From: an uncultured archaeon
GTDB taxonomy: Archaea; Asgardarchaeota; Lokiarchaeia; Sigyniarchaeales; SOKP01
Assembly: GCA_964493715.1 (NCBI GenBank)
Contig: CAZBPC010000030.1
Coordinates: 1-32,862, forward strand
Direction: 5' to 3'
Length of the DNA stretch: 32,862 bases
Shown here: positions 982-28,215 of the stretch, in pieces
Numbering within the stretch: position 1 is the first letter of the stretch
How the letters are laid out: the number at the start of each line of letters is the position of its first letter
Translations under genes and position numbers: made by a program
Notes under the pieces: model-generated
What the model was told of the DNA's origin: nothing
What the model saw: the letters and a program-made list of their open reading frames with translations, nothing else
Database searches by the model: none

Positions 982-2601
982 TTAGAAGATATTCATGGCC
1001 TTTCCAAGCCAATACACTACTAAATAGGAGTTAGGAATCACTTGTTTTAACCCGTCTCCAGATATATCACCACCCATTCCGGCCAATTTGCCATGTTCCC
1101 ACAGAAAGTGATGTACTCCCATTTCTGATACAGTTAAGGGTTTTAAATAGGTAGGCTCGTCAAACCCAAATTCGTCACCAATCCATTCGAATAAACTTCC
1201 AAAAGGGTGATTCGCAAAGAAATCATTCCATTTAGCTTTATTTGGTTCTATCTCCATCAGTCTAATTTCGGGGTTAAGGCTAGTATCACGGGTTGAGTTC
1301 GGACGCACTGACAAGTTATAATTCCTAATTCCTTCACCCCATCCTGAAGTATTATAGCGCCATAATTGATCAAGAATATCCCACTTAATTGTATCATCAT
1401 TATAGTCTGGATCTTCATAAACTGAAGAATCTGGGATCATTGACATGAAAGTTAAATGAACGATATTAAAAAAGGCATTACGATGATAACGTAAATAATC
1501 ATAAAAGCCATTTTCGAAATTTTTGATATAATGTTGTTGTAATTTGGGATTGTCTTCTAACATGATTAATGAAAACATTACATCCATGCTAAATGCTAAA
1601 GCGTATGTATCATAAAACGTATTTTGAGAACTGGAGCTCCCTGCCCCTACCATTGACATTACTTTTGTAGCTTCATATTGATAAAGCGAGTCGTATTTTT
1701 CAGGTGATGCTGTTGCACCGATTCGAAGTAATGTGAGACGCCATACGGTATCTGGAAAATAGACATTAAGATCCGATCCCACAGGTTCTCCTTCACCTCC
1801 TAAAACTAACCAATTGGTTTTTTTAAAACCTTCGATCATTTGTTCAGTTAACAGTCGAACTCTTTCCACGCACCATCGACTATCCTCATTTGCAGAGGGA
1901 TCAATAAATTTAAGTACACTTGATAGTCCCAAATAATAACCCGCTAATTCATCTCTACTTGTATGTAACCTCACACGCCAATTTTTATAAGGTCCTGTCC
2001 CATTAAAATGTCTGGGATCTTCTTGAAACAACCACTCATGATATTTTCTATTCTCTGGAGAAGAGACAAATCTTGCAGGCATCCCTGGATAATCGGGACC
2101 AATACCACCATTAGGTGCAGCTAACATGTTGCTGAATCCCGTAACACATTTCTTGACCATACGTGTAGCATTTGCTAATTCGTCAACATCCATCGAATCT
2201 AATGCTGTTTTATATCGAAAACATTGAGATGCTAAAGTATATCCCAAATGAAGGGCTCCATTATCAGTTCCCTCCCAAGAGGAGACTTCGCTATATGTAT
2301 CATTAGTAAATGTTACATCAACGCTTATATTAGAAGGCATGTGAAATTTTTCAAGTTGTAAATCGAATAGATCTGCCATTTTTTCCAAATTAGTTGCATT
2401 TCCTTCAATTTGAGCAAGGGGGATAAAATAAGCAGTATTAGGAGGATCTAAAGTATAGGTAAAGGATGCTACATCATCAATTATATAAAAAGCAAAACCC
2501 ACATAAGAAAAAAAACCAATAACAGGAAGAGCTAACAGAAATGAAACGACTATATATTTGTAAATTAGATGTTTTCTGGCTCGGATTCTCATATTAATCA
2601 C
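982..2601 (-). CDS. Membrane-anchored extracellular protein, possibly an alpha/alpha-toroid carbohydrate-active enzyme (start could be ATG 2592)
   Basis: 539-aa ORF with one N-terminal TM; motifs DNGALHLGYTLASQCFRY and TSRDELAGYY; aromatic/acidic rich; the fold is inferred. Confidence 0.5.
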   Translation of the reverse strand: MINMRIRARKHLIYKYIVVSFLLALPVIGFFSYVGFAFYIIDDVASFTYTLDPPNTAYFIPLAQIEGNATNLEKMADLFDLQLEKFHMPSNISVDVTFTNDTYSEVSSWEGTDNGALHLGYTLASQCFRYKTALDSMDVDELANATRMVKKCVTGFSNMLAAPNGGIGPDYPGMPARFVSSPENRKYHEWLFQEDPRHFNGTGPYKNWRVRLHTSRDELAGYYLGLSSVLKFIDPSANEDSRWCVERVRLLTEQMIEGFKKTNWLVLGGEGEPVGSDLNVYFPDTVWRLTLLRIGATASPEKYDSLYQYEATKVMSMVGAGSSSSQNTFYDTYALAFSMDVMFSLIMLEDNPKLQQHYIKNFENGFYDYLRYHRNAFFNIVHLTFMSMIPDSSVYEDPDYNDDTIKWDILDQLWRYNTSGWGEGIRNYNLSVRPNSTRDTSLNPEIRLMEIEPNKAKWNDFFANHPFGSLFEWIGDEFGFDEPTYLKPLTVSEMGVHHFLWEHGKLAGMGGDISGDGLKQVIPNSYLVVYWLGKAMNIF

Positions 2602-24050: not shown

Positions 24051-24407
24051 ATGCCTATTGAAACTACATATATAATTAAAAATCGCTCTGACAAAGACAA
24101 GGCTATTAAAGATGCCATTTTTGCGTTTTCTGGCGGCACTCGATCCTTACTCATAAAAGGAGAAGGAGATGAAATTTCAACTGCGGTAGAAGTGGCTGAA
24201 ATAATCAAAAATAGGATGTATCCCTCTCTAGAGATTGCTAACATTTCACTGGGAAGCCGACCATATTTTAACAACAGATCTCGTAGCTATGATAGGAATA
24301 ATAGAAATAATAGGAATAACAGGAATGATAGGAATAACAAGAATGATAAAAATTCCAAAGATTTAATATCTAAAATCGAAATAAAACTATCAAGGTCTAA
24401 TCAATAA
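24051..24407 (+). CDS. Divergent Alba-family nucleic-acid-binding protein with an R/N-rich insertion
   Basis: LLIKGEGDEISTAVEVAEIIKNR, NISLGS and ISKIEIKL match the Alba fold pattern. Confidence 0.8.
   Translation: MPIETTYIIKNRSDKDKAIKDAIFAFSGGTRSLLIKGEGDEISTAVEVAEIIKNRMYPSLEIANISLGSRPYFNNRSRSYDRNNRNNRNNRNDRNNKNDKNSKDLISKIEIKLSRSNQ
24291..24353 (+). repeat. Seven imperfect 9-bp tandem repeats encoding (D/N)-(R/K)-N
   Basis: gataggaat aatagaaat aataggaat aacaggaat gataggaat aacaagaat gataaaaat. Confidence 0.9.
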
Positions 24408-24408
24408 A

Positions 24409-24591
24409 ATGTCGTTTGAAAAACTAGGGCCATTATTAGGAGAAGCTAGAACAAGCAGTGTATGTATGATTTGTAACAATTTCATTTATAAAAGAATTTA
24501 TCGTGATGAGAATTCCTCGGGCAACCAAAAAATAGTGTTTGTTTGTAAAAACTGTCTTAGGAACAATCACCAAGCAGAGAATGCAGAATAA
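24409..24591 (+). CDS. Small zinc-ribbon protein
   Basis: CMIC...CKNC; starts 1 bp after the Alba stop. Confidence 0.7.
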   Translation: MSFEKLGPLLGEARTSSVCMICNNFIYKRIYRDENSSGNQKIVFVCKNCLRNNHQAENAE

Positions 24592-24606
24592 ATAAAAATT
24601 CTACAA

Positions 24607-25413
24607 CTAATTTGATAATTTCTTCTCTTGACGCTTATTGAAATATTTATCCCAATTAAAGGTCAAGATAAAAAACATCACACTCAGAGTTACTAATAAA
24701 AACATTGCTTCAGTAATTACGCTAGAGCTATCATTAATGTCTATGCCACTAGCAGCATATCCTAATATGAGGAATAATGGAAGAATAGCATAGAAAAAGG
24801 TAGTAATATTCTTGCCAAGCCATCCCCAAATTAAACACTTCGTAATATTTATTTTCTTATCTGACATGCCAAGTGCAATCCATAAAGGATCGTCAGGAAT
24901 GGGTAACGCTGCTGCTATAAAAATAAATAAATACATACTTTTTGGGTGTTCTAACAGTAATCTTCCAAATCCCTTGACATTTTTAAAGGTTTGAGTAGAA
25001 GTCCTTTTAACAACTTTTTTTGTCCCCAATCCTAGTAAAAAACTGAACATTTCTCCCAATATACTCCCTAAACCTCCAACAAAAGTAATCCCTAAGATTT
25101 CAAGCCAAAAAAAACCATTTCCAAAGATTTCACCCAAAAGCAAATATTTATAATAAATAGATTGTGATATGGAAAAAAGCACAAAAGGATAAGGTATAGG
25201 AAAACCAATACTTGCGTTTCCAATTAAACAAATGAAAAATGAGACTAGTAATGCAAGAAAATAATTCGATCCCTCAGTTAAAATTGCCATATTTTTTCTT
25301 GCATTGATAATTTCTGCTTGAAATTCAGGTATTGTTAAAAATAATAATAAATATATGATAATTGCTAGATAGAAAAACGTGAAAACAATAACTAATTTTT
25401 TAGGAACCGCCAT
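24607..25413 (-). CDS. DedA/VTT (SNARE-associated, Tvp38-like) membrane protein
   Basis: FPIPY, GSILGE..SFLLG, AALPIPDD, GWLGK. Confidence 0.75.
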   Translation of the reverse strand: MAVPKKLVIVFTFFYLAIIIYLLLFLTIPEFQAEIINARKNMAILTEGSNYFLALLVSFFICLIGNASIGFPIPYPFVLFSISQSIYYKYLLLGEIFGNGFFWLEILGITFVGGLGSILGEMFSFLLGLGTKKVVKRTSTQTFKNVKGFGRLLLEHPKSMYLFIFIAAALPIPDDPLWIALGMSDKKINITKCLIWGWLGKNITTFFYAILPLFLILGYAASGIDINDSSSVITEAMFLLVTLSVMFFILTFNWDKYFNKRQEKKLSN

Positions 25414-25435
25414 TATAAGGACATCATTATCATTT

Positions 25436-25825
25436 TTAACGTATTTTTGAAAATTTAGTATTTAAACCATTCTTAGCTTTCAGAAATAAATCTAGATTTT
25501 CTGTTACTTTTCCAATCTTACTAACTTTATAAGGCATCTCAAAATCTTCTAATAATATCAGCAATTCATCGCTTTTTGGATTATAAAGAATATCCCCTTT
25601 ATTTCCTTTTTTCTCTGATTTAGGATTTAAACCCTTATAGATTTCTACTCCTGGAAGAGACCAGTAATTCTTAGCATTAAAATTAAATCTTCCTCTCAAG
25701 GTAAATGGCATTTTTCTCAGAACGGCATCTGCACAAAATGCTGCAGAATGACGATTTATTACACCAATAATGCTACCAATGCCAAATAATTCAATTTTAA
25801 TAGAAACATCTCCAATATCAGACAT
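25436..25825 (-). CDS. Cyclophilin-like fold protein
   Basis: AVLRKMPF, KGDILYNPKSDELLILL, SKIGKVTENL pattern. Confidence 0.65.
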   Translation of the reverse strand: MSDIGDVSIKIELFGIGSIIGVINRHSAAFCADAVLRKMPFTLRGRFNFNAKNYWSLPGVEIYKGLNPKSEKKGNKGDILYNPKSDELLILLEDFEMPYKVSKIGKVTENLDLFLKAKNGLNTKFSKIR

Positions 25826-25915
25826 ATTCTATAATTATATGTATTTAGGCTATATATATTATTTCAAAAATTAGAAATTCATTTGGAGTAAATTTAGTAC
25901 CATGTAATAAGAACA

Positions 25916-25923
25916 TTTAAATA
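25916..25923 (+). promoter_or_regulatory. Putative TATA box for the intergenic RNA
   Basis: TTTAAATA preceded by purine-rich AAGAA, ending about 23 nt before the 5' arm of the closing stem; weak on its own in AT-rich DNA. Confidence 0.45.
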
Positions 25924-25945
25924 CCCAATTTGTTATAATAATAAT

Positions 25946-26416
25946 TGGACAATAGTAATGAAATTTGCATTGGTTTAAAGTTCATTAATTCGGTTTATCC
26001 TATAAACAAGTTATTGCTATTAATTTTATTGATTCATGCACTGTGGTATTGGTTTTAATCATCCCACCAATTCTCAAAACACACAGAGAAATTTAAATTT
26101 TTTACACACATCATTATTCGGTACATATTTACCGTAGTATGACCATGATATTTAATCTATAAAGCAGGATATAATTATTGAGGATTTATCTTTTAGATTT
26201 TCACGCTTGCTTTAATTAATGGAGAAATAAATGCCTTGATGCATAGAAATTTGAGCTCTTGTTGATATGAGATTTTTTTTTCATACTCGAGACAAATAAT
26301 CTTTAAGCATTTAAACGAAATTATAAAAAAGGAGCTTGAAAGTAAACGCTTCTGGAATATAAAGTAGTTCCGTACAATCTATGGTTCTTTCAAATTCGGG
26401 GCTACTATTGTCCACC
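25946..26416 (+). ncRNA. Candidate structured ncRNA of about 470 nt, family unknown
   Basis: No long ORF in a 579-bp gap; perfect 12-bp end pairing 25946-25957/26403-26414; many nested helices with G-U pairs favouring the + strand; upstream TATA and downstream T9. Confidence 0.55.
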
Positions 26417-27238
26417 TTTTTTTTTATTCAGATAATCCAGATCAAAAGACGTATCGATATCATAAAAGGATCCTGTTGAATTGATTTCGCATGCGATAAC
26501 TTCTTGGAGATTCCTTTTACAAACTTCATTCAAAATATCACTAATTTTATTAAAGCGAGACGATTTTAATATTTGAGAGATTAGTAGCAAGAACTCGTAA
26601 TTTAAAAAAAAGACTGGTATTACTTGATCGATATATGCTTTTTCATTAATACTAGAAAACTCAATCTCTTCGATTCGAATTAATGCCTCAATGTCCCGTT
26701 TTTTAATAGTTTTAATACAAGAAATTGTCTGCCCTTCCTTGTTAATGTCACTGGTTTTAACTCGATTGTAAAATACTATTGGTTTTCTTTGAAATTTCTC
26801 AATTTCCTTCATTATTGTTATTATAATTTCATTTATTAGATCTTGATCAAAGAGCGTATCACCTGGAAAGATTAAAAAATTATTGTCTTTTTTACTTATT
26901 TCGGGGTAATCGAGTATAGTTAAGAATGTAAAAAGTGGGCCTTTATTATAATCAGGATGAGCATTAAGAGTAGTTATTCGGTTATTAAGAAGAGAATTTT
27001 GACTTTTCATGTTAGAAATATAAGTTTCAATTACTTTCCCCATAGATCCTACGATAATGATTATATTTCTTAATCCTTGGCTATATAGATTATCGATAAT
27101 GATGTTTAATAAAGTTTTATTATCCATTGATTGTATCTGAATCAAAGATTTAGGAATAGTCGAGTTAATTTCTCGAAATCTAGTGCCTTCCCCAGCACAT
27201 AAAATAATGACTTGAAGTTTTTCTTTTAATTCTTTCAT
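26405..27238 (-). CDS. Sugar-phosphate nucleotidyltransferase (NTP_transferase family)
   Basis: IILCAGEGTRF...PKSL, FPGD, FYDIDT. Confidence 0.85.
   Translation of the reverse strand: MKELKEKLQVIILCAGEGTRFREINSTIPKSLIQIQSMDNKTLLNIIIDNLYSQGLRNIIIIVGSMGKVIETYISNMKSQNSLLNNRITTLNAHPDYNKGPLFTFLTILDYPEISKKDNNFLIFPGDTLFDQDLINEIIITIMKEIEKFQRKPIVFYNRVKTSDINKEGQTISCIKTIKKRDIEALIRIEEIEFSSINEKAYIDQVIPVFFLNYEFLLLISQILKSSRFNKISDILNEVCKRNLQEVIACEINSTGSFYDIDTSFDLDYLNKKKGGQ
26417..26425 (+). terminator. Oligo-T terminator for the candidate RNA
   Basis: T9 run just after the 3' arm of the closing stem; it also encodes Lys codons of the convergent gene. Confidence 0.4.
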
Positions 27239-27264
27239 TTTGAGCTAATTTTTATTTTATAGGA

Positions 27265-28179
27265 TTACTTAGTTGTTACAATAGTATTTCCATCTTGATC
27301 TATAACTATGGTATGTTCTTGCTGAGCGACTGGTGCTCTTGTTTGTTCAATTAATATAGGATAATGATCAAGTATCTTTTTCCCAACAAACGAATCTATA
27401 TATCTTTTAATTTTATCAACTGGAATGATGTTATGTTTTTCGATTAAACGAGGTGAAAAAGGTAATTTTTTGGTTAAAGAGTCTATTTTTTGCATAAAAG
27501 CTTGTTCCTCATAGGAGATATTCTTTTTTATTTTTCTGACTAATCTATAAATATATGAGGTATCTCCATTTACCACCTTTCCCGTTCCCGAGGTTGAAAA
27601 TGGTTCACAAGCATATGCTTGACCCGGTTTTATTACTTGATCATGCCTTTTATCTTTATAATTTGGAATAAATGGTCCTGCGTGGAGGTTAAATTGTTTT
27701 AATTCATGACCACCCAAATTGGTTATAGGTCGTAGTCCAAAACTGATGATTTTGTCCGCAATCGCTTCACCTAATTCATATAATTTGACTCCCGGTTTGA
27801 AAAGTTCAATAGCTGCTTCTAAACCTTCATCAGCAGCATCAATATATTTCTGTAAGGATGGATCTTCGTCTAAATTAATTGTAAAGGCTGAATCTGCAAT
27901 ATACCCGTTATGATGAGAACCAAGATCTATTTTCAACAATCCTTTTTCTGGAACTAGAGTCGAATCTGCAATTGGTGGACTATAATGAGCAGCTATTTCA
28001 TTTAATGATAAATTTATTGGAAAAGATAACTCACAACCTTTTTTTAGAATCTCTTCTTCACAGATATTTGCAACTTCTAAGTAAGAGATTCCCGGTTTTA
28101 TTATTTTTCGGGCAAGATTTTTTGCTGCAACAACAGCTTTTCCAGCTAAGATATATGATTGAATCCAATTTTCTGACAT
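27265..28179 (-). CDS. map: Methionine aminopeptidase type II
   Basis: AAHYSP, KIDLGSH.NGYIADSAFT, NLGGH, ACEPF, QQEHT. Confidence 0.95.
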   Translation of the reverse strand: MSENWIQSYILAGKAVVAAKNLARKIIKPGISYLEVANICEEEILKKGCELSFPINLSLNEIAAHYSPPIADSTLVPEKGLLKIDLGSHHNGYIADSAFTINLDEDPSLQKYIDAADEGLEAAIELFKPGVKLYELGEAIADKIISFGLRPITNLGGHELKQFNLHAGPFIPNYKDKRHDQVIKPGQAYACEPFSTSGTGKVVNGDTSYIYRLVRKIKKNISYEEQAFMQKIDSLTKKLPFSPRLIEKHNIIPVDKIKRYIDSFVGKKILDHYPILIEQTRAPVAQQEHTIVIDQDGNTIVTTK

Positions 28180-28215
28180 GTAAATAAATAATTGATTTTT
28201 GCTTATAAAATAATT

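What the first reader, a model, noticed from the sequence alone, without database searches (positions are those of the whole stretch)
25916..26425. Unannotated large structured RNA in the biggest intergenic gap
Seen on +: TATA (25916-25923); 5' arm TGGACAATAGTA (25946-25957) perfectly complementary to 26403-26414; then CC and T9. Internal helices: 25956-62/25981-87, 25993-98/26002-07, 26017-25/26214-22 (enclosing 26041-45/26082-86, 26048-53/26066-71, 26119-23/26130-34, 26161-68/26206-13, 26179-88/26194-203), and 26228-34/26307-13 (enclosing 26266-72/26279-85). Several need G-U pairs that work only on the + strand. The 3' end (CAAAUUCGGGGCUAC + closing helix + CCU) is reminiscent of RNase P/MRP RNA ends, but I found no GGAAAGUC-type CR-I, no SRP helix-8 motif and no T-arm. 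Inference: a highly diverged known RNA or a new Asgard ncRNA class. Caveat: AT-rich sequence forms short stems by chance.
Basis: partly seen in the sequence, partly recalled or inferred. Interest (0 to 1): 0.75.

Follow-up and report, generated by a model that had tools for sequence, protein, structure and literature searches.

The report
Orphan large RNA of Loki archaea
The gap holds a real, single-copy gene for a folded, roughly 470-base RNA that makes no protein, is kept throughout one large family of Loki-type Asgard archaea and matches no catalogued RNA family; it most likely acts as a protein-binding scaffold, but its job is not shown.

Summary
Real stand-alone RNA gene at 25947 to ~26417-26425 (+). 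A 5'-end model finds it in 115 of 133 genomes and all 13 genera of the window's family, nearly always one copy; nothing comparable turned up outside. Fixed parts in 108 delimited copies (343-790 nt): TATA box, a 10-12 bp helix joining both ends (1051 of 1080 cells paired, with compensatory swaps), a CANNG(G/U) motif (106/108) and a U tract. One metatranscriptome holds a 474-nt contig over 25960-26418 and nothing on the flanking genes. It is not RNase P, MRP, SRP, 5S, tmRNA or Y RNA: signatures are absent, and RNase P, SRP and a circularly permuted 5S gene lie elsewhere. Best reading: a closed-stem scaffold RNA of a ribonucleoprotein (about 0.45); partner and function not shown. This scan has reported the same RNA family on other DNA at least eight times; eight paper searches found no description.

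The parts
25909..25923 (+). Archaeal promoter: purine-rich BRE-like stretch and TATA box (25916-25923)
   Evidence: TATA-type box in 108 of 108 delimited copies (it was part of the delimiting rule), 30-31 nt before the first helix base in 98 of 108; near-invariant columns in alignment A2
25947..26425 (+). ncRNA gene, ~470 nt; predicted start G25947, 3' end in the U tract
   Evidence: Conserved in 115 of 133 family genomes; RNA contig 25960-26418; ends are inferred, not mapped
25947..25957 (+). Closing helix P1, 5' strand
   Evidence: 1026 Watson-Crick + 25 G-U of 1080 cells; double changes at pairs 1, 2, 4, 6, 10 in different genera
25967..25976 (+). Conserved, probably single-stranded CANNG(G/U) motif behind a variable A/U linker
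   Evidence: 106 of 108 copies; no consistent local partner; deleted in L144 and L147
25977..26250 (+). Variable interior arms, several with U-rich loops
26251..26295 (+). Irregular hairpin arm with U-rich loop, conserved in genera g1, g25, g27, g28
   Evidence: 74.6% of cells paired, 3 of 9 pairs with double change
26331..26402 (+). 3'-terminal arm (outer helix with tandem U-G pairs, inner hairpin) directly abutting P1; the window's own copy is a diverged version
   Evidence: Outer helix 86.7%, inner helices 81-82% of cells paired in 35 sequences; averaged pair probability 0.54
26403..26414 (+). Closing helix P1, 3' strand, overlapping the stop codon of the convergent ORF
   Evidence: Same nucleotides kept where the ORF ends in another frame (L015, L029, L031; 3 of 29)
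26417..26425 (+). Oligo-T terminator-type tract
   Evidence: >=7 T in the 13 nt after the helix in 107 of 108 (>=5 was part of the delimiting rule)
25436..25825 (-). Divergent neighbour: cyclophilin-like ORF (PF18050, E 1.7e-5)
   Evidence: Upstream in 30 of 30 same-genus loci, but not adjacent in genus g21
26405..27238 (-). Convergent neighbour: nucleotidyl-transferase ORF, end of an aaRS-MAP-NTPt operon
   Evidence: Pfam; downstream in 29 of 30 same-genus loci, missing in genus g22 where MAP follows directly
24051..24407 (+). Divergent Alba-family paralogue with basic R/N/D-rich insert; candidate partner only
   Evidence: 122 of 132 other family genomes, 0 of 26 outside at E<=1e-8, but fast-evolving probable orthologues exist in G041, G045, G044 where no RNA was found

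Best explanation
A single-copy, independently transcribed housekeeping RNA of one large Loki-type (Promethearchaeia) family. Shown or strongly supported: it has its own TATA promoter, starts at the first base of a 10-12 bp helix that closes the two ends, ends in a U tract, codes for no conserved protein and exists as a discrete transcript. Inferred: it works like the scaffold RNA of a ribonucleoprotein. The closing helix shields both ends from exonucleases and, because its sequence is kept on both strands far beyond what pairing needs, is read by a protein together with the single-stranded CANNG(G/U) motif at its foot; the radiating arms vary freely in length and sequence and act as flexible tethers or secondary binding sites (U-rich loops for Sm-like proteins, irregular helices for Alba-type proteins). 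Confidence that it is a real RNA gene: about 0.93. Confidence in the scaffold mechanism: about 0.45.
For: Presence 115/133, 13/13 genera, 113 with one copy, plus four genomes missed by the model but delimited by synteny (L063, L083, L144, L147). P1 covariation and G-U tolerance. Independent of both neighbours: g21 keeps only the NTP-transferase side, g22 only the cyclophilin side. Nucleotides kept under frame change of the overlapping ORF. Control: 64 of 80 pattern hits with long flanks have the 3' arm; the 12 bacterial hits without Loki neighbours and 6 viral hits have none. Length 343-790 nt at genome-like GC (0.29 vs 0.31) fits a scaffold better than a compact ribozyme. Three LSm genes over cut-off in G000 and three Alba genes are available as partners.
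Against: No partner is shown. LSm genes are equally present in the sister family. The nearby Alba paralogue has probable orthologues in genomes without a detectable RNA. The conserved motif is missing in 2 of 108 copies. RNAalifold found no consensus fold on the 3'-domain alignment and only 11 of 32 hand-set pairs show a double change (23 of 500 shuffles as high; slid registers give 8-13). Expression rests on one run of contigs, found with this stretch as query, with no strand or end information; DNA carry-over cannot be excluded.
Confidence: 0.45

Rival explanations
1. Decoy for the transcription or translation machinery (works like bacterial 6S or mycobacterial Ms1 RNA; recalled): the closed stem and the A/U-rich single strand at its foot mimic an open promoter and hold RNA polymerase or a basal factor during slow growth.
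For: Invariant duplex sequence next to a single-stranded A/U-rich linker; strong promoter; RNA assembled where flanking mRNAs were not.
Against: Multi-arm interior rather than a rod with central bubble; linker length varies 0-16 nt; no Rfam 6S/Ms1 match.
Confidence: 0.13
2. Degenerate or repurposed descendant of a known RNA, e.g. a tRNA-Arg gene at this operon end or a duplicate of RNase P/SRP RNA, that kept only its closing stem and a D-loop-like GG motif.
For: A tRNA-Arg(CCU) gene sits at the same place and orientation in two sister-family genomes (L207, L208) and its acceptor stem starts with the same four pairs as P1; two tRNA-Arg D-loops of G000 differ from the motif by one base.
Against: No T-loop, CR-I/CR-V, helix-8 or 5S loop-C signature (0-1 of 108); P1 is 10-12 bp, not 7; base after the helix is not conserved; ARAGORN finds nothing; G000 has its own intron-bearing tRNA-Arg(CCU) on C83; the tRNA was seen in 2 of 15 non-family loci fetched downstream of MAP. 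Short matches of this size arise by chance.
Confidence: 0.13
3. Base-pairing RNA: the single-stranded motif pairs in trans with a target (tRNA NCCA ends, as the T-box bulge does; an rRNA precursor; start-codon regions).
For: UGG(U/A) in 103 of 108 copies is complementary to NCCA; no local partner found.
Against: Middle positions of the motif vary; no target site in the 16S/23S stretches held and longest antisense matches of only 9-10 nt; an 11-nt match to 5S in G000 is not kept in 15 other genome pairs; motif lost in 2 copies.
Confidence: 0.1
4. RNA-only multimer like ROOL, GOLLD or OLE.
For: Similar size, stand-alone and apparently abundant (PMC12286853, abstract read).
Against: Those RNAs show covariation-supported ornate cores (same abstract); here the interior is unalignable between genera and A/U-rich.
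Confidence: 0.07
5. Not a trans-acting RNA: a cis element (3' end or terminator of the convergent operon, leader of the divergent gene) or a DNA inverted-repeat element (origin, MITE).
For: 3' arm overlaps the NTP-transferase stop; position fixed at the operon end; AT-rich core between inverted repeats.
Against: Promoter and U tract both point along +; G-U pairs tolerated in P1 (25 cells vs 6 A-C); either neighbour can be lost; single copy; RNA contig stops at the predicted ends.
Confidence: 0.05

Closest known systems
Large orphan bacterial ncRNAs OLE, ROOL, GOLLD (PMC12286853, abstract and outline read)
   Same: Stand-alone, several hundred nt, lineage-restricted, found by comparison, function open
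   Different: No Rfam match; archaeal; only the ends and a short motif are fixed, interior free to vary 343-790 nt; GC not raised above genome
Archaeal RNase P RNA (RF00373) and eukaryotic RNase MRP RNA
   Same: Size range, P1 helix joining the ends, own promoter and U tract
   Different: No CR-I or CR-V signature, no room for the P4 pseudoknot; canonical RNase P RNA present elsewhere
Archaeal SRP RNA (RF01857)
   Same: Terminal helix closing 5' and 3' ends, single copy
   Different: No helix-8 motif; SRP RNA present elsewhere
Y RNA / stem-bulge RNA (PMC4726728, abstract and outline read)
   Same: Conserved-sequence terminal stem, variable loop domain, U tail; modular scaffold logic
   Different: Four to five times longer (recalled size ~100 nt); no Ro60/TROVE gene in 5 of 5 genomes searched
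Flexible scaffold RNAs such as yeast telomerase RNA (recalled)
   Same: Ends paired, fast-evolving arms radiating from a central junction
   Different: No template or pseudoknot shown; no RVT_1 reverse transcriptase in G000 or G106

Membership tests
RNase P RNA (archaeal) / RNase MRP RNA | Covariance-model match to RF00373 or related families | tested here: not met
   No hit at E<=5 in the window, none at E<=1 or 2 in homologues; the model finds the real gene on C136
RNase P RNA (archaeal) / RNase MRP RNA | CR-I and CR-V consensus forming the P4 pseudoknot | tested here: not met
   Recalled signature patterns: CR-I 1/108, MRP CR-I 0/108, CR-V 0/108; the 3' stretch is paired in a terminal arm abutting P1
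RNase P RNA (archaeal) / RNase MRP RNA | Catalytic cleavage with Pop5/Rpp proteins | not testable with these tools
   Needs assay
SRP RNA | Helix-8 SRP54-binding motif | tested here: not met
   0/108; SRP RNA on C49
5S rRNA (expanded) | Loop C signature, and need for a 5S gene in the lineage | tested here: not met
   0/108; a permuted 5S gene is matched in 114 of 132 other family genomes
tmRNA | tRNA-like domain with T arm, tag ORF, SmpB | tested here: not met
   ARAGORN 0; T-loop 0/108; SmpB 0 of 5 genomes; indels break frames
Y RNA | Ro60/TROVE partner gene | tested here: not met
   PF05731 0 of 5 genomes
tRNA with long introns or permuted tRNA | 7-bp acceptor, T arm, splice motifs | tested here: not met
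   10-12 bp covarying helix, no T-loop; tRNA-Arg(CCU) present on C83
RT-template RNA (retron, telomerase-like) | Linked or co-occurring reverse transcriptase | tested here: not met
   PF00078 absent from G000 and G106; none in the window
OLE / ROOL / GOLLD | Rfam match and conserved ornate core | tested here: not met
   interior unalignable across genera
Box C/D guide RNA | Conserved C and D boxes / K-turn | tested here: not met
   Box C pattern 1/108; G-A pairs in the 26251-26295 arm not constant
Scaffold RNA of an RNP (functional class) | Specific protein partners bound at conserved modules | not testable with these tools
   Candidate Alba paralogue inconclusive

The most novel reading that the evidence does not exclude
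It is the RNA core of a ribonucleoprotein with no counterpart in described archaea: an Asgard 'eukaryote-style' scaffold RNA that assembles Sm-like and a dedicated, basic-tailed Alba paralogue (the family that supplies Pop6/Pop7 and Rpp20/Rpp25 to RNase P, MRP and telomerase RNAs; recalled) on variable arms, with the UGG-bearing single strand gripping tRNA CCA ends or another RNA substrate.
Probability: 0.12. Interest if true: 0.9.

Novelty: categorically new. Interest (0 to 1): 0.63.

Why it matters
Archaea have very few known long stand-alone RNAs (rRNA, RNase P, SRP). A 350-800 nt RNA retained in single copy through all 13 genera of the largest sampled Loki family implies a core job that nobody has assigned. 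Its design, fixed closing stem plus freely varying arms and U-rich loops, resembles eukaryotic scaffold RNAs more than compact prokaryotic ribozymes, so it gives a concrete object for asking whether Asgard archaea evolved such RNPs. The limit on importance: it was not found outside this one family, so it need not bear on eukaryote ancestry. It is also a usable high-abundance, family-specific RNA marker if expression is confirmed.

Tried and rejected
Expanded 5S rRNA: attractive because RF00001 passed cut-off in 12 of 14 sister-family genomes but in 1 of 35 same-genus genomes, that one behind a bacterial 23S gene; rejected when a permuted 5S gene was found. Replacement for a missing rRNA piece: the 23S gene of G066 matches the model end to end. 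tRNA-Arg replacement: gene present elsewhere. Antisense pairing with 5S, 16S, 23S: not conserved. Local bulged-G helix for the 5' motif: seen in some copies, no consistent register. Alternative 3' hairpin that would displace P1 using an internal copy of part of its 5' strand: 87% of cells paired but only 2 of 15 pairs with double change, 232 of 500 shuffles as high; weakened in the window's own copy; left open. Homologues outside the family: best scores 19.2 bits in 125 other phylum genomes and 23.7 bits in 26 other class genomes, against 30-66 bits inside; the ten best outside hits inspected were ORF interiors or unrelated strong promoters without a closing helix; 20 neighbourhood stretches from other families gave nothing; in G037 another ORF fills the spot. 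The model covers the 5' end only and its first look missed known copies (G066, G086), so a diverged homologue is not excluded. Alba co-occurrence: weakened. The 14 loose letters at the RNA contig's 3' end have no match over 11 nt in the genome or held loci. No 3'-domain or whole-RNA covariance model was built; R-scape was not available. Paper searches; none listed a paper describing this RNA. The library lacks most subscription papers; the COMPASS preprint (10.64898/2026.10.21.760802; passages only, no Asgard/Loki word in the main text) may hold it as an unnamed cluster in supplements or its web atlas, which I did not see.

Full report
Setting. The window is contig C30 of a 3.68-Mb genome rated 100% complete. 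Its genes (Ras-like GTPase, JAB domain, archaeal ThrRS, Alba) and the titles of records that carry the same element (mostly 'Promethearchaeota'/'Promethearchaeia') place it among Loki-type Asgard archaea. The family is coded f1 in the tools; that it is the GTDB family SOKP01 is my recollection, not a call result.

Observation. Single-sequence folding is modest: z -2.08 on +, +0.38 on -. Rfam gave no hit in the gap at E<=5 and ARAGORN none in the window.

Conservation. The 631-nt gap matched 31 of 35 same-genus genomes and 0 of 24 others by blastn. Using the neighbours as anchors I fetched the spot from more genomes: a rule (TATA box, closing helix, motif, U tract) delimited the RNA in 98 of 112 family loci; ten more were added by a looser scan, including three from genus g21, giving 108 copies from 13 genera, 343-790 nt, median 484, GC 0.22-0.37. 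A sequence-only model of promoter plus 5' end hit 115 of 133 family genomes, 113 once and 2 twice; four of the 18 misses are known copies (L063, L083, L144, L147). The training sequences match by construction. Outside the family the best scores were 19.2 bits among 125 phylum genomes and 23.7 bits among 26 class genomes; the top ten class-level outside hits were not homologues. An exact pattern over one genome per species gave 96 hits, and 6 in viral contigs. Of the 80 genome hits with long flanks, 64 have the complementary 3' arm; 4 more have Loki neighbours but are cut short or variant; the 12 bacterial hits without such neighbours and all 6 viral hits lack it; 16 hits had flanks too short to judge. 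One record titled as a bacterium carries RNA and Loki neighbours, probably misbinned.

It is an RNA gene in its own right. In the ten core pairs of the closing helix P1, 1026 of 1080 cells are Watson-Crick, 25 G-U, 6 A-C, 23 other (some of these from mis-set register in genus g28); double changes occur at pair 1 (g26, g29), 2 (g19), 4 (g18, g23, g25, g29), 6 (g24, g29) and 10. The first helix base lies 30-31 nt from the TATA box in 98 of 108, the usual place of an archaeal start site (established knowledge). The 3' strand overlaps the stop of the convergent NTP-transferase; the ORF ends in the same frame in 26 of 29 same-genus loci and in other frames in 3, with the nucleotides kept, so the constraint is on nucleotides. 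Neither neighbour is required: g22 lacks the NTP-transferase there, g21 is separated from the cyclophilin-like gene. One salt-marsh metatranscriptome was the only run returned; laid on 24600-28200 it gave a single 474-nt contig, about 96% alike, depth 30, over 25960-26418 and nothing elsewhere. This fits a discrete abundant RNA, but it is one run, contigs only, without strand or true ends.

Structure. Across the family only P1, the CANNG(G/U) motif (106 of 108) and the U tract are fixed. In genera g1, g25, g27, g28, averaged pair probabilities over 72 sequences point to small 5' hairpins, a U-loop hairpin, two irregular arms and a 3'-terminal arm that abuts P1. Counted on a 35-sequence alignment of the 3' domain, my hand-set structure pairs 80.8% of cells against 35-46% for slid registers; cells with double change 24 against 13.7 in shuffles (0 of 500), but pairs with double change 11 of 32 (23 of 500), no more than in slid registers. 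RNAalifold on the same alignment predicted essentially nothing. So the 3' domain is moderately, not firmly, supported. Two copies (L144, L147) have lost the whole 5' motif domain.

What it is not. RNase P RNA and SRP RNA lie elsewhere; their recalled signatures, and those of MRP, 5S, tmRNA, T arm and box C, are found in 0-1 of 108 copies. I seriously considered an expanded 5S rRNA, since standard 5S is nearly undetectable in the genus; the family instead has a circularly permuted 5S gene. SmpB and Ro60 were not found in five genomes, reverse transcriptase not in G000 or G106. Sixteen further homologous loci from other genera gave no Rfam hit over the RNA.

How it most likely works. Shown: promoter, paired ends, terminator-type tract, single copy, family-wide retention, a transcript of the right span. 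Inferred: P1 protects the ends; its sequence is conserved on both strands (most pairs keep one type in over 95 of 108 copies) although swaps are tolerated, which suggests a protein reads it along with the nearby motif; the arms are free to change twofold in length, as in flexible scaffold RNAs and unlike ribozymes. I therefore favour a scaffold RNA of an RNP (0.45). Candidate partners are weak: LSm genes are present but equally so in the sister family; a divergent Alba paralogue 1.5 kb upstream looked co-distributed (122 of 132 inside, 0 of 26 outside), but very diverged probable orthologues occur in G041, G045 and G044, in the same neighbourhood and without a detectable RNA. Rivals: polymerase or factor decoy (0.13), relic of a tRNA or other known RNA (0.13; a tRNA-Arg gene occupies the spot in two sister-family genomes), base-pairing guide (0.10), RNA-only multimer (0.07), cis or DNA element (0.05).

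Literature and earlier notes. Eight searches (listings seen) returned no description of this RNA. Read: PMC7812874, passages (Asgard only in a reference); 10.64898/2026.10.21.760802, passages; PMC12918454, passages; PMC4726728 and PMC12286853, abstract and outline. No supplements were read. After reaching the reading above I found that this scan had already reported what is evidently the same RNA family from at least eight other windows, and the permuted 5S gene from eight; these AI notes are not independent evidence, and the numbers here are from my own calls.

Verdict. Observation confirmed; new-class reading supported, RNase P/MRP reading rejected. A real, undescribed, family-restricted large archaeal RNA of unproven function. 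Interest 0.63.

Noticed in passing
G000:C8 about 73030-73250 (- strand), L050/L161; L162-L190: Circularly permuted 5S rRNA gene: the 3' part comes first, helix I is closed by a tetraloop, and the flanks form a long stem with a bulge-helix-bulge motif whose cut sites would restore loop C. Matched in 114 of 132 other family genomes, missed by RF00001 at cut-off. G057 (L047, another family) looks permuted at a different point. Already noted by this scan elsewhere.
   Followed up: partly
window 24051-24407 (+): Third, divergent Alba paralogue with acidic changes in the usual basic motif and an R/N/D-rich insert; single copy in 122 of 132 family genomes, fast-evolving probable orthologues in G041, G045, G044.
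   Followed up: partly
window 24409-24591 (+): 60-aa zinc-finger ORF directly behind the Alba paralogue, weak SNAPC3 hit (E 2.8e-4); a similar ORF follows the Alba-like gene in G041.
   Followed up: no
L207 546-619 and L208 1671-1744: tRNA-Arg(CCU) gene at the position and orientation of the RNA in two sister-family genomes, with a small unannotated CXXC ORF between it and the NTP-transferase.
   Followed up: partly
G000 whole genome: ARAGORN calls only 27 tRNAs in a genome rated complete; several missing ones appear to be multi-intron genes (e.g. C83 near 2270, C84 near 11559, C2 near 62200).
   Followed up: no
L001 (G000:C136:116-440, -): The RNase P RNA has a non-standard CR-I/P4 sequence with matching changes in CR-V.
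   Followed up: no
L032 (G000:C49:1715-2028, -): SRP RNA scores only 64.9 bits, under the 96.5 cut-off, and shows no obvious terminal helix by eye.
   Followed up: no
L015 1536-2325; L144; L147; L004: Extreme variants of the RNA: 790 nt with large insertions (L015), 343 nt (L004), and two copies lacking the 5' motif domain (L144, L147); useful natural deletion series.
   Followed up: partly
L044 (G015:C263): The only standard 5S hit in the genus follows a bacterial 23S gene: contamination of that bin.
   Followed up: yes
L225 about 1390-1500 and 1080-1170 (- strand), G059: Two related hairpins with C/U-rich loops in a ~780-nt non-coding gap behind a TATA box; no Rfam match.
   Followed up: no
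window 26418: 14 unexplained loose letters at the 3' end of the metatranscriptome contig; no genomic source found; adapter, chimera or tail undetermined.
   Followed up: partly
L205 about 960-1260: 21-nt tandem repeat array behind the NTP-transferase gene in G052.
   Followed up: no
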